From: Patescibacteria group bacterium
GTDB taxonomy: Bacteria; Patescibacteriota; Patescibacteriia; UBA2591; JAQWAS01
NCBI GenBank assembly: GCA_028707495.1
Contig: JAQWAS010000003.1
Location: forward strand, 47,711 to 111,710
Direction of reading: 5' to 3'
Length of the DNA stretch: 64,000 nt
The position numbers and the translations under genes were made by a program. Shown piece by piece: positions 31,163-33,196 of this stretch. Under the pieces are notes generated by a model. That model ran no database searches. It worked only from the letters and a program-made list of their open reading frames with translations, and was not told where the DNA came from. How positions within the stretch are numbered: the stretch's first letter is position 1; every line of letters starts with the position of its first letter.

Positions 31163-33196
31163 ATGTCACAACGTAAAAAAATTTGGTTAAGCTTTGCAGC
31201 TATTTTAATTATAGCCCTTTTTTGCGGTGCTGTTGATTATCCCAAATTACCTTGGGATAATAAAGTAGCTAATTGGTTTACCAATCAAAAAGTTCATCTA
31301 GGTTTAGACCTGCAAGGCGGAACGCATTTAGTTTATCAAGCTGATGTCAGCAATATCGAATCAGAAGAAAAGGGTTCAGCTGTTGAAGGTGTCAGAGATG
31401 TGATTGAACGTCGGGTTAACACTTTTGGCGTTTCTGAGCCAGTCGTTCAAACTAATAAAGTTAAAAATACTTGGCGAATTATTGTAGAATTACCAGGCGT
31501 TAAAGACGTTAAACAGGCGATTCAAATGATTGGAGAAACGCCTTTATTAGAATTTAAAGAACAAAAAGACGCACCCGAGGCTGAGGAAAAATTAAAAATT
31601 GAGAGTCAAGCACAAGAGATTTTAACTGAAGTCAAAAATAATCCAGCGCAGTTTAATGAAATTGCTCAACGAGTCGCAGATGAAAATTCTGGTATAGAAT
31701 TTAATGCCGATCAAATAAAATTTAAAGATGAAATAGATGCTTCAATTCGTGATCAGGTTTGGAATATGTATCAAGGACAGATTTCAAAGGTGATTGAGGG
31801 TAATTTAGGCTATATGGTTTTAGATCAGAATGTGGTGCCACGCGCGGGTTATTACATTATAAAAATAGACGATAAAAAATATAACATAGAAAGAATTGAA
31901 GAAAATCAAGACCAAGAGGTAAAAGCTTCACATATTTTAATTGCCTATCAAGGAGCTGAACGAGCGACAACCGATAGAAGTCAAGAAGAAGCTAAAACTT
32001 TAGCTGAGGAATTGTTAGATCGTATAAAAAATAATGGCGAGAATTTAGCTGATTTAGCTAAAGAATATTCAGATTGTAGTAGTGCTGAAATGGGTGGCGA
32101 CTTGGGATTCTTTGGTAAAGGAACTATGGCGCCGGAATTTGAAGAGGCGGCCTTTAATTTAGAAAAAGATCAAATTTCAGATATAGTTGAAACTAATTTT
32201 GGCTATCATATTATTCAAGTGACTGACATTAAAGGCGAGACTGAAACTAAAACTTATGAAGATCAAATCGTTTACAGTTCACTTTTCTTTGGTATTACTT
32301 ATGATCCTTGGCAAAACACTGGTTTAAGTGGTCAACAATTACAAATCGCACGAGTTGAGTTTGATCCCAATACTGGCGCACCAGAAATAGCTTTAGAATT
32401 TAATCAAGAGGGAGCAGATTTATTTGCGGCCATTACCGAACGCAACGTCGGTCAGCCGGTAGCGATTTTCTTAGATGGTCAGGCAATTAGCATTCCAACA
32501 GTTAATGAAAAAATTCCTGACGGTAAAGCGGTCATTAGTGGTAAATTTAACATCACTGAAGCTAAATTATTAGCTCAACGTTTAAGTGCTGGTGCTTTGC
32601 CAGTACCAATTGAATTAATTTCACAACAAACAGTTGGTGCTTCTTTGGGCCAAGATTCTGTGGCTAAAAGTTTAAAAGCTGGATTGATCGGTTTAATTCT
32701 AATTGCTTTGTTTATGATAATTTTATATCGTTGGCCAGGTGTCTTAGCTGTTTTGGCTTTAATTTTATACAGCGTTATAACTTTAGCTGTTTTTGAATTA
32801 ATTCCCATCACTCTAACCTTAGCTGGAATTGCTGGGTTTATTTTATCTATTGGTATGGCAGTTGATGCTAATGTTTTAATTTTTGAAAGATTAAAAGAAG
32901 AGCTTAAAGATGGTAAGCCTTTAGACTTAGCCGTTAAGGATGGTTTTGATCGAGCCTGGACTTCAATTCGTGATGGTAATTTATCAACCTTAATTACTTG
33001 TGTAATTTTATATTGGTTTGGTACGAGCATGATTAAGGGCTTTGGTTTAACTTTAGGTCTTGGTGTTGTTTTGAGTATGTTTTCAGCCATTGTCATTACA
33101 AAAACATTTTTAAGATTATTTGGTGGTAGGGGTAAAAGATTGTGGTTGTATGGAGTTAAAAATAAACAACAAGATAAAGATTTAGAAATTAATTAA
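31163..33196 (+). CDS. secD: Protein translocase subunit SecD with a parvulin-type PPIase (PrsA/SurA-like rotamase) domain inserted in the periplasmic P1 region
   Basis: The N-terminal SecD signature is [16 protein letters not shown]. The inserted domain is [15 protein letters not shown]...[44 protein letters not shown]. The SecD P1 head resumes after the insert ([20 protein letters not shown]), followed by the TM bundle. Confidence 0.75.
   Translation: [677 protein letters not shown]

What the first reader, a model, noticed from the sequence alone, without database searches (positions are those of the whole stretch)
31163..33196. SecD carrying an embedded parvulin PPIase domain
SecD here is 677 aa. 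Between the first TM/N-terminal SecD signature and the conserved P1 head, a full parvulin rotamase domain is inserted (HILIAYQG...[11 protein letters not shown]...NFGYHIIQV). A weaker half-repeat precedes it. This would place a periplasmic foldase of PrsA/SurA type physically on the translocon accessory subunit. It is an economical fusion for a reduced genome, and I have not seen it described for SecD.
Basis: seen in the sequence. Interest (0 to 1): 0.6.

Follow-up and report, generated by a model that had tools for sequence, protein, structure and literature searches.

The report
SecD with built-in nested parvulin foldase
This bacterium's SecD, a helper of the protein-export channel, really does carry a proline-isomerase folding domain in its outward-facing part, and the design is common in the small-genome Patescibacteria yet apparently undescribed.

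Summary
ORF 31163-33196 is a 677-aa SecD, followed by secF. About 250 residues replace the ~37-residue link between the P1 base and the P1 head. Pfam Rotamase matches residues 257-355 with E = 3e-39.

It is not an artefact. All 120 best homologues of the window protein and all 120 best homologues of a short-form relative carry SecD and Rotamase domains together. The 80 reference-genome loci returned (the output cap) all cover the whole insert. They are Falkowbacteria, Uhrbacteria, Magasanikbacteria, Parcubacteria and other Patescibacteria.

The "weaker half-repeat" is a nearly whole second parvulin that lacks only its first strand. The insert reads A1-B1-A2-B2. B1+A2 is a canonical parvulin that appears active: both His are kept in 102 of 103 sequences, and the model superposes on Pin1 at 1.7 Å. 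This unit sits nested inside a degenerate, circularly permuted outer parvulin (A1+B2). Covariation supports that pairing. A ~555-aa sister class has only the permuted unit, with its catalytic residues intact.

The most likely role is a PrsA-like foldase or holdase fixed at the translocon exit. Activity is inferred, not shown. The closest known analogues are non-covalent: the M. pneumoniae dome complex and SurA binding to SecDF. I found no paper describing the fusion. I rate it a new variant of a known kind, interest 0.6.

The parts
31163..33196 (+). secD gene, 677 aa, with a nested double-parvulin insert in the P1 domain
   Evidence: ORF list; Pfam and NCBIfam; AF2 model with mean pLDDT 89.7
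31181..31237 (+). TM1 (about residues 7-25), preceded by the basic N-terminus MSQRKK, so the P1 domain faces outward
   Evidence: Hydropathy; helix 3-25 in the AF2 model
31385..31567 (+). SecD_1st, the N-terminal part of the P1 base (residues 75-135), ending in the PLLEFKE strand. The insert starts right after it.
   Evidence: Pfam PF21760, E = 3e-18; aligned to TtSecDF 30-122
31577..31897 (+). A1 (about residues 139-245): outer parvulin unit without beta1. It is degenerate: there is no GGDLG motif, GYYIIKI replaces GYHII, and it carries an extra beta hairpin.
   Evidence: Pfam Rotamase 38.6 bits, profile 12-93; home-made HMM positions 21-102; pLDDT mostly 85-97
31916..32233 (+). B1+A2 (residues 252-357): inner parvulin in canonical order, carrying H257, S303-D304-C305, GGDLGFF 311-317, M322, F326, T344 and H349
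   Evidence: Pfam Rotamase E = 3e-39, profile 1-97; Foldseek against Pin1 3ik8_A gives 110 columns, rmsd 1.7 Å, TM 0.88, 38% identity; conservation
32249..32293 (+). B2 (residues 363-377, [15 protein letters not shown]): trailing strand that completes the outer permuted parvulin. It is homologous to the His-bearing beta1 strand of the short class.
   Evidence: Strand 363-377 in the model; alignment with the short class; covariation of B2 with A1 but not A2
32318..32605 (+). P1 head subdomain (residues 386-481)
   Evidence: Pfam PF22599, E = 3e-28; aligned to TtSecDF from residue 160
32609..33121 (+). C-terminal membrane domain (residues 483-653) with the [13 protein letters not shown] motif. 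D568 aligns with the Asp of TtSecDF GAAVDGNVLSFER.
   Evidence: Pfam PF02355; alignment; D568, N570, E575 and R576 invariant in 104 sequences
33202..34101 (+). secF, 299 aa, starting 5 nt after the secD stop codon
   Evidence: TIGR00966 scores 306.6 bits against a cut-off of 160; secF lies downstream in 73 of 80 related loci

Best explanation
The gene encodes a working SecD, the proton-driven accessory subunit of the Sec translocon, paired with SecF. A two-unit parvulin module has been built into the connection between the base and the head of its outward-facing P1 domain. The module reads A1-B1-A2-B2, where A is a parvulin without its first strand and B is that first strand. B1+A2 fold as an ordinary parvulin prolyl isomerase that keeps the residues corresponding to the Pin1 network H59, C113, T152 and H157 (here H257, C305, T344 and H349) and the hydrophobic substrate-pocket residues. 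A1+B2 fold around it as a circularly permuted parvulin that has lost both histidines and probably acts only as scaffold or binding surface. Because the P1 head is the part of SecDF that captures polypeptide leaving SecYEG, the fusion holds a PrsA-like foldase or holdase at the channel exit, so exported proteins meet it as they emerge. Shown here: the architecture, its topology, its conservation, and the retention of catalytic residues. Inferred: isomerase activity, action on nascent exported chains, and any coupling to head movement.
For: The insertion point is mapped against 3AQP. The outward-facing topology follows. The architecture is conserved in all 120 best homologues of the window protein, in all 120 best homologues of the short-form protein P0103, and in the 80 returned Patescibacteria reference-genome loci, which all cover the full insert.

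For the inner unit, the S111, H59, T152 and H157 equivalents are kept in 103, 102, 100 (+3 Ser) and 103 of 103 sequences. The C113 equivalent is E, D, G or C, and the window has Cys. G312, F326, G347 and H349 are invariant. The AF2 model has pLDDT of about 96-98 across most of the inner unit and superposes on Pin1 over 110 of 113 residues at 1.7 Å. That requires B1 to pack with A2.

For the nesting, MI-APC on 103 inserts puts 25 A1-B2 pairs in the top 0.5% (5.7 expected) against 1 A2-B2 pair (4.6 expected). The fourth-strongest pair overall joins the two His-equivalent positions of the outer unit, N102 and R227. The strongest pair overall joins B1 to A2.

For the permutation, the short class matches parvulin HMM positions 24-107 and then positions 1-13. 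Its consensus is ...GGDLGFF...FGYHIIKK...ASHILFKT. Moving the trailing strand to the front extends the Pfam match to profile position 1 and adds 4-7 bits, while a reversed-strand control does not.

The SecD proton-path motif is intact. For functional plausibility, parvulin lipoproteins sit on SecDF-SecYEG in M. pneumoniae (10.1101/2025.04.25.650208; 10.1101/2024.09.05.611430), and SurA binds the periplasmic domains of SecDF (PMC9987972).
Against: No activity data exist for any member. All sequences come from uncultured organisms. The C113-equivalent position is Gly in 14 of 103 sequences, so strict catalysis may not be universally required. Model coordinates could not be read, so the A1-B2 packing rests on covariation, homology and conservation rather than on inspected contacts. 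In the short class, block-level covariation between the strand and the rest of the unit is not enriched (11 pairs against 10.9 expected), and no parvulin structure reached the Foldseek top 50. Parvulin domains of SurA and PpiD can be dispensable or inactive in other bacteria (established knowledge), so the presence of the fold does not prove a foldase role.
Confidence: 0.62

Rival explanations
1. The parvulin module is a non-catalytic substrate-binding (holdase) or docking surface. It would enlarge the P1 head's capacity to grip unfolded chains or recruit partners, with prolyl isomerisation irrelevant.
For: The outer unit has lost both histidines in every long-class sequence. The C113-equivalent residue of the inner unit is Gly in 14 of 103 sequences. 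By established knowledge, the chaperone functions of SurA, PpiD and PrsA often do not need PPIase activity. In M. pneumoniae, two of the three dome proteins have lost their catalytic residues (10.1101/2025.04.25.650208).
Against: The inner unit keeps H59, T152, H157 and S111 equivalents almost without exception, along with the hydrophobic pocket residues M322 and F326, across proteins that are only 50-60% identical overall. The short class keeps both His in its single permuted unit. Such conservation is most simply explained by selection on the active site.
Confidence: 0.25
2. The insert is a structural or regulatory element. It could be a spacer reaching the cell wall or S-layer, or a brake or lever that tunes P1 head movement, without acting on substrates.
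For: The site between P1 base and head tolerates lineage-specific inserts of varying size: SecD forms of about 555, 680 and 780 aa, and SecDF fusions of 1040-1075 aa. The insert begins with a long helix that could act as a stalk.
Against: A spacer would not need to preserve a parvulin active site. The inserted fold is always a parvulin and never an arbitrary domain.
Confidence: 0.08
3. The fusion is an artefact: a frameshift, a chimeric assembly, or a mis-joined prsA-like gene and secD.
For: None found.
Against: The reading frame is continuous with no N bases. SecD sequence resumes after the insert. The same architecture appears in hundreds of independently assembled genomes, including contigs and chromosomes of 0.5-1.3 Mb.
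Confidence: 0.01

Closest known systems
Canonical SecD/SecDF (T. thermophilus SecDF, PDB 3AQP/5XAN; E. coli SecD)
   Same: It has the same N-terminal TM helix, P1 base and head, C-terminal five-helix membrane domain with the conserved Asp motif, and adjacent secF.
   Different: About 250 residues of parvulin module replace the ~37-residue base-to-head link of Thermus. SecD and SecF are separate genes here.
PrsA (Bacillota), SurA and PpiD (Proteobacteria): extracytoplasmic parvulin chaperones
   Same: It shares an extracytoplasmic parvulin domain with PrsA-like catalytic residues. The best NCBIfam parvulin match is PrsA, over residues 243-360. SurA likewise pairs one inactive and one active parvulin (established knowledge).
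   Different: No SurA_N or PrsA N/C chaperone domain was detected, and scores are far below family cut-offs (81 against 361 bits). The module is anchored through SecD rather than through a lipid or its own TM helix. The outer parvulin is circularly permuted, which I did not find reported.
M. pneumoniae 'dome' translocation-folding complex (Mpn444/Mdp444, Mpn436, Mpn489 with SecDF-SecYEG-SecA)
   Same: In both cases a genome-reduced bacterium without an outer membrane places PrsA-like parvulin domains directly on SecDF at the SecYEG exit. One catalytic copy is accompanied by degenerate copies (10.1101/2025.04.25.650208; 10.1101/2024.09.05.611430).
   Different: There the association is non-covalent and uses large separate lipoproteins that form a chamber. 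Here a small parvulin pair is fused covalently inside SecD.
E. coli SurA-holotranslocon and PpiD/YfgM-SecYEG interactions
   Same: Parvulin-containing chaperones are recruited to the Sec exit site, partly through the periplasmic domains of SecDF (PMC9987972; PMC9643414).
   Different: Those are transient interactions between separate proteins in a diderm, serving outer-membrane protein traffic.
Pin1/Par10-type parvulin PPIase domain (PF00639)
   Same: The inner unit shows 38% identity to the Pin1 catalytic domain and 1.7 Å rmsd in the model. It even has the SDCSSA motif with the Pin1-type Cys.
   Different: By the alignment it lacks the Pin1 basic phosphate-binding cluster and has no WW domain. 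It is extracytoplasmic and embedded in another parvulin.

Membership tests
SecD (TIGR01129; PF21760 + PF22599 + PF02355) | Family HMM score above the curated cut-off | tested here: met
   TIGR01129 scores 394.2 bits against a cut-off of 244.4. All three Pfam SecD domains are above their gathering scores.
SecD (TIGR01129; PF21760 + PF22599 + PF02355) | Topology: one N-terminal TM helix, a large external P1 domain with base and head, and five C-terminal TM helices | tested here: met
   Hydropathy; AF2 secondary structure; Foldseek best hits are SecDF 5XAN and 3AQP.
SecD (TIGR01129; PF21760 + PF22599 + PF02355) | Conserved membrane Asp motif of the proton path (GxxVDxNVLxFER) | tested here: met
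   [13 protein letters not shown] aligns with Tt GAAVDGNVLSFER. D568, N570, E575 and R576 are invariant in 104 sequences.
SecD (TIGR01129; PF21760 + PF22599 + PF02355) | Partner secF encoded adjacently or fused | tested here: met
   secF at 33202-34101 scores 306.6 bits on TIGR00966. It is downstream in 73 of 80 related loci.
SecD (TIGR01129; PF21760 + PF22599 + PF02355) | PMF-dependent stimulation of protein export | not testable with these tools
   This needs biochemistry or genetics.
Parvulin PPIase domain (PF00639), inner unit 252-357 | Family HMM above cut-off over the full profile length | tested here: met
   134.3 bits against a cut-off of 21.7, profile 1-97 of 97.
Parvulin PPIase domain (PF00639), inner unit 252-357 | Parvulin fold: a four-stranded sheet with helices, in canonical order | tested here: met
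   In the predicted model only: Pin1 3ik8_A aligns over 110 columns with rmsd 1.7 Å and TM 0.88. pLDDT is about 96-98 across most of the inner unit.
Parvulin PPIase domain (PF00639), inner unit 252-357 | Active-site network corresponding to Pin1 H59, C113 (or Asp), T152 and H157 | tested here: met
   H257, C305, T344 and H349 are present in the window. Family conservation is 102/103, acidic/Cys/Gly, 100/103 and 103/103 respectively. Residue roles are taken from established parvulin literature.
Parvulin PPIase domain (PF00639), inner unit 252-357 | Measured prolyl cis/trans isomerase activity | not testable with these tools
   This needs an enzyme assay.
Parvulin PPIase domain, outer unit (A1 139-245 + B2 363-377) | Family HMM above cut-off | tested here: met
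   Residues 137-256 score 38.6 bits against 21.7, but only over profile positions 12-93.
Parvulin PPIase domain, outer unit (A1 139-245 + B2 363-377) | Canonical strand order with beta1 first | tested here: not met
   There is no beta1 before A1. The completing strand follows the inner unit. A1-B2 covariation gives 25 top pairs against 5.7 expected.
Parvulin PPIase domain, outer unit (A1 139-245 + B2 363-377) | Catalytic histidine pair | tested here: not met
   The window has Y and S at the two His positions. No long-class sequence has both His.
PrsA / SurA / PpiD chaperone families | N- and C-terminal chaperone (SurA_N or trigger-factor-like) module flanking the parvulin | tested here: not met
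   No such Pfam family was found at E <= 0.1. NCBIfam PrsA and SurA matches cover only the parvulin domain and adjacent residues (about 228-372) and score 68-81 bits against cut-offs of 343-394.
PrsA / SurA / PpiD chaperone families | Own membrane anchor (lipoprotein signal or TM helix) or a soluble periplasmic protein | tested here: not met
   The module is internal to SecD.

The most novel reading that the evidence does not exclude
The parvulin pair sits exactly in the connection between P1 base and P1 head, the element that swings during the proton-driven SecDF cycle. The fusion could therefore be a mechanically coupled, PMF-powered extracytoplasmic foldase, in which head movement presents and releases substrate to the isomerase site. 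That would supply energy-driven folding in a compartment without ATP. The short, long and ~780-aa forms would additionally be a natural series documenting circular permutation of a domain by duplication and nesting.
Probability: 0.15. Interest if true: 0.85.

Novelty: new variant of a known kind. Interest (0 to 1): 0.6.

Why it matters
How proteins are received and folded just after they leave SecYEG is an open question. There is no ATP outside the membrane. Contacts between chaperones and SecDF have only recently been seen, and those contacts are transient or non-covalent (SurA with the holotranslocon; the Mycoplasma dome complex).

A covalent SecD-parvulin fusion conserved across a very large group of bacteria is 'Rosetta-stone' evidence that the SecDF head and a prolyl isomerase work on the same substrate at the same place. 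It also offers a compact single-chain object for structural and biochemical work.

It suggests how Patescibacteria, with about 1-Mb genomes and no outer membrane, organise extracellular folding.

The nested, circularly permuted parvulin is of separate interest for protein evolution. I found no report of a permuted parvulin. Here forms with one permuted unit, with a permuted unit hosting a canonical one, and with still larger inserts coexist in related lineages.

Tried and rejected
(1) Reading contacts from the AF2 models. Coordinates are not exposed in /data. I used Foldseek superposition and my own MI-APC covariation instead.

(3) Foldseek on the short-class model returned only SecDF and RND transporters in the top 50. 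This is compatible with a permuted order defeating sequential alignment, but it is not evidence in itself.

(4) Origin of the units by pairwise identity. The short-class unit is 40% identical to A2, 31% to A1 and 38% to the Pin1/PpiC outgroups. That is inconclusive on whether the long form arose by duplication or by insertion.

(5) The exhaustive representative search with the insert was meant to size the family. Its top hits are mostly standalone tandem-parvulin proteins of other phyla, such as Deltaproteobacteria and Eiseniibacteriota, whose scores add up over repeats. They say nothing about whether Patescibacteria have a separate prsA.

(6) Synteny with the upstream hrcA-grpE-dnaK-dnaJ cluster. 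It is not conserved in the 80 related loci, so I rejected it as functionally meaningful.

(7) The tandem 'beads on a string' reading (A1+B1, A2+B2). I rejected it because Pin1 superposes over B1+A2 in canonical order, because B2 co-varies with A1 and not A2, and because both His are kept only in B1 and A2.

(8) Short-class block-level covariation is not enriched. Only the top individual pairs support strand-to-unit contact.
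Full report
OBSERVATION. The window carries an uninterrupted 677-aa ORF at 31163-33196 (+). A 299-aa ORF follows 5 nt after its stop codon. There are no ambiguous bases. Pfam finds Sec_GG (38-61), SecD_1st (75-135), Rotamase PF00639 (257-355, E = 3.1e-39, the full profile 1-97), SecDF_P1_head (386-481) and SecD_SecF_C (483-653). NCBIfam gives TIGR01129 secD at 394 bits (cut-off 244) and, for the next ORF, TIGR00966 secF at 307 bits (cut-off 160). Against solved structures, residues 41-138 align with T. thermophilus SecDF 30-122 and residues 388-658 with 160-430. So 249 residues occupy the place of a 37-residue link between P1 base and P1 head. The finding's coordinates, motifs and insertion point are all correct.

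NOT AN ARTEFACT, AND NOT RARE. All 120 best hits of the 677-aa protein carry the SecD and Rotamase Pfam sets together. Sources name them simply 'protein translocase subunit SecD' from Patescibacteria, Kuenenbacteria, Falkowbacteria or Parcubacteria, and several lie on contigs of 0.5-0.9 Mb. A second length class of about 555 aa is just as abundant: 120 of 120 best hits of P0103 carry both sets, including Kerfeldbacteria and contigs up to 1.3 Mb. A scan of one genome per species found more than 600 pattern matches and 564 relatives. The 80 loci returned (the cap) all cover the whole 341-residue query, insert included. They come from Falkowbacteria, Uhrbacteria, Magasanikbacteria, Buchananbacteria, Parcubacteria and unclassified Patescibacteria. 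Some MAGs are labelled 'uncultured Gammaproteobacteria' but have CPR-like features and probably carry placeholder names. The closest species representative is only 48% identical, so the window's own lineage is poorly sampled. secF follows in 73 of the 80 loci.

ANATOMY OF THE INSERT. Call A the parvulin body without its first strand (helices, GGDLGxF..., FGYHII). Call B the first strand (xSHILI). The ~555-aa class has the order A-B. Its consensus is ...[27 protein letters not shown]...VETQFGYHIIKKTDEEGEEEARASHILFKTQSEED. A parvulin HMM built from PpiC, Pin1 and the window's own copy matches positions ~24-107 and then, weakly, positions 1-13 after them. Curated Pfam matches only profile 8-95. 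This is a circularly permuted order.

When I moved the trailing strand to the front in silico, the Pfam match extended to profile position 1. The score rose from 78.5 to 82.2 bits for P0103 and from 86.3 to 90.8 bits for P0012. A reversed-strand control stayed at 78.6 and 84.6 bits.

The ~680-aa class, which includes the window, reads A1-B1-A2-B2. HMM hits are 24-106 and then 1-107. The window's A1 alone (residues 137-256) passes the Pfam threshold at 38.6 bits but covers only profile 12-93. The strand after A2 (consensus KEYKVSRILIKKKTEADILPP) is plainly homologous to the short-class B strand with its tail ([17 protein letters not shown]).

WHICH STRAND BELONGS TO WHICH BODY. Three lines of evidence agree on nesting: an inner canonical B1+A2, enclosed by an outer permuted A1+B2.

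(i) The AF2 model (mean pLDDT 89.7, with the insert mostly 85-98) superposes on the Pin1 catalytic domain over 110 of 113 residues at 1.7 Å, TM 0.88, 38% identity. That is possible only if strand 252-260 packs with A2 in canonical order.

(ii) MI-APC covariation used 103 long-class inserts (Neff 76). A1-B2 has 25 pairs in the top 0.5% (5.7 expected) and A2-B2 has 1 (4.6 expected). A2-B1 has 7 (4.2 expected), including the strongest pair overall. A1-B1 has 4 (5.2 expected). The fourth-strongest pair overall links N102 and R227, the two His-equivalent positions of the outer unit. The equivalents of Pin1 C113 and T152 (D56 and T97) also couple to R227.

(iii) Conservation. The inner unit keeps the H59, T152 and H157 equivalents in 102, 100 (+3 Ser) and 103 of 103 sequences, and the S111 equivalent in all 103. 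The C113 equivalent is E in 70, D in 17, G in 14 and C in 2, and the window is one of the two with Cys. No long-class sequence keeps both histidines in the outer unit; Asn with Arg is the commonest combination, and the window has Tyr with Ser.

THE WINDOW'S OWN COPY. A1 (~139-245) is strongly degenerate: it has no GGDLG, reads GYYIIKI, and carries an extra hairpin at 211-245. These traits are shared with its nearest relatives P0002-P0006 and with larger variants. The inner unit (252-357) reads KASHILIAY...[32 protein letters not shown]...[11 protein letters not shown]. Its SDCSSA motif is identical to Pin1's. It lacks the Cys pair in the beta1-alpha1 loop that 95 of 103 relatives have and that co-varies, so it is presumably a disulfide. 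By the alignment it also lacks the Pin1 basic phosphate-binding cluster. I therefore expect a non-phospho-specific, PrsA/Par10-like specificity; this is inference.

WHAT IT MOST LIKELY DOES. The SecD core looks functional. All SecD domains are present, the membrane Asp motif [13 protein letters not shown] aligns with that of Thermus, and D568, N570, E575 and R576 are invariant. By established knowledge of SecDF (Tsukazaki et al. structures 3AQP and 5XAN), the P1 head binds emerging preprotein and swings on the base under proton flow. A parvulin with an intact active site, inserted at the base-to-head connection and facing outward, is therefore placed to meet every chain leaving SecYEG. I take it to be a translocon-tethered foldase or holdase that does the job PrsA does in monoderm bacteria (confidence about 0.6).

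The outer His-less unit probably serves as scaffold or extra binding surface, as the inactive first parvulin of SurA does (established knowledge). The architecture, topology and conservation are shown. Enzyme activity, substrate range and any coupling to head motion are inferred. The main rival, a purely binding or holdase role (0.25), is favoured by Gly at the C113 position in 14% of sequences and by precedents of inactive parvulin domains. It is disfavoured by the near-absolute conservation of the two histidines and Thr.

COMPARISON WITH WHAT IS KNOWN. By every testable criterion this is a member of the SecD family, and its inner unit is a parvulin. It is not a member of the PrsA, SurA or PpiD families. 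No N/C chaperone module is detected, and family scores are far below cut-off.

Functionally, the closest systems are non-covalent. In M. pneumoniae, PrsA-like PPIC lipoproteins (Mpn444/436/489) form a 'dome' on SecDF-SecYEG-SecA, with one catalytic and two degenerate copies and substrate density touching the catalytic PPIC domain (10.1101/2025.04.25.650208; 10.1101/2024.09.05.611430). In E. coli, SurA binds the holotranslocon through the periplasmic domains of SecDF (PMC9987972), and PpiD/YfgM bind SecYEG (PMC9643414).

Full-text searches for SecD with parvulin, PPIase, PpiC or rotamase, combined with Patescibacteria or CPR, and for parvulin with 'circular permutation', found no description of the fusion or of a permuted parvulin. 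The library does not cover all journals. The proteins themselves are in public databases with both Pfam domains precomputed, so the architecture is 'visible' but unremarked.

NOVELTY AND VERDICT. This is a real, conserved, lineage-wide domain fusion, and I rate it a new variant of a known kind. It extends the very recent idea that SecDF recruits parvulin foldases by showing a covalent version, and it adds a natural circular-permutation and nesting series in a classic small fold. The 'economy for a reduced genome' argument is plausible but untested. No other parvulin lies in the 64-kb window, and the rest of the genome could not be examined. Interest is 0.6.

Noticed in passing
window 22474-29187: A heat-shock chaperone cluster, hrcA-grpE-dnaK-(378-aa ORF with no Pfam match, 26908-28044)-dnaJ, lies on the same strand about 2 kb upstream of secD. 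A PLD-type (cardiolipin-synthase-like) gene (29215-30312) and a 200-aa membrane protein with a weak DUF6057 match (30426-31028) lie between them.
   Followed up: partly
window 19715-21316 (-): This 533-aa ORF has a C-terminal Por_Secre_tail/CHU_C (type IX secretion sorting) domain. It sits in the only GC-elevated patch of the window (GC 0.40 against ~0.31, with negative GC skew). That is odd for a patescibacterium and may reflect horizontal acquisition.
   Followed up: no
window 44914-46210: A cluster of six tRNA genes on the + strand, with single tRNAs at 15794-15864 (+) and 63874-63945 (-).
   Followed up: no
window residues 261 and 268 of SecD (nt 31943-31945, 31964-31966): 95 of 103 long-class relatives have a co-varying Cys pair, a probable disulfide stapling the beta1-alpha1 loop of the inner parvulin. 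The window has Ala at both positions but instead carries the rare Pin1-type Cys305 (2 of 103).
   Followed up: partly
P0257 (604 aa): This protein has a lipoprotein-like signal (…LAALTGC), two parvulin units and a SecDF P1 head, but no membrane domain. It looks like a free-standing 'P1 + parvulin' lipoprotein, or possibly a truncated gene.
   Followed up: partly
P0324 (1075 aa), P0341 (1043 aa); P0251, P0273, P0301, P0342, P0368 (776-796 aa): Further variants of the same theme: single-chain SecDF fusions that carry the parvulin insert, and SecD forms with even larger inserts at the same site.
   Followed up: partly
L002, L012, L031 (OZ246416.1, 886 kb chromosome) and about 20 other loci: Many MAGs encoding the Patescibacteria-type SecD are titled 'uncultured Gammaproteobacteria bacterium' (binchicken/SRP co-assemblies). 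Genome size and gene content suggest these are placeholder or wrong taxonomic labels.
   Followed up: no
window 31100-31162: A sigma-70-like TTGACC ... TAGTAT pair with 17-nt spacing lies about 30-60 nt upstream of the secD start, and there is no obvious Shine-Dalgarno sequence (read; not scanned formally).
   Followed up: no
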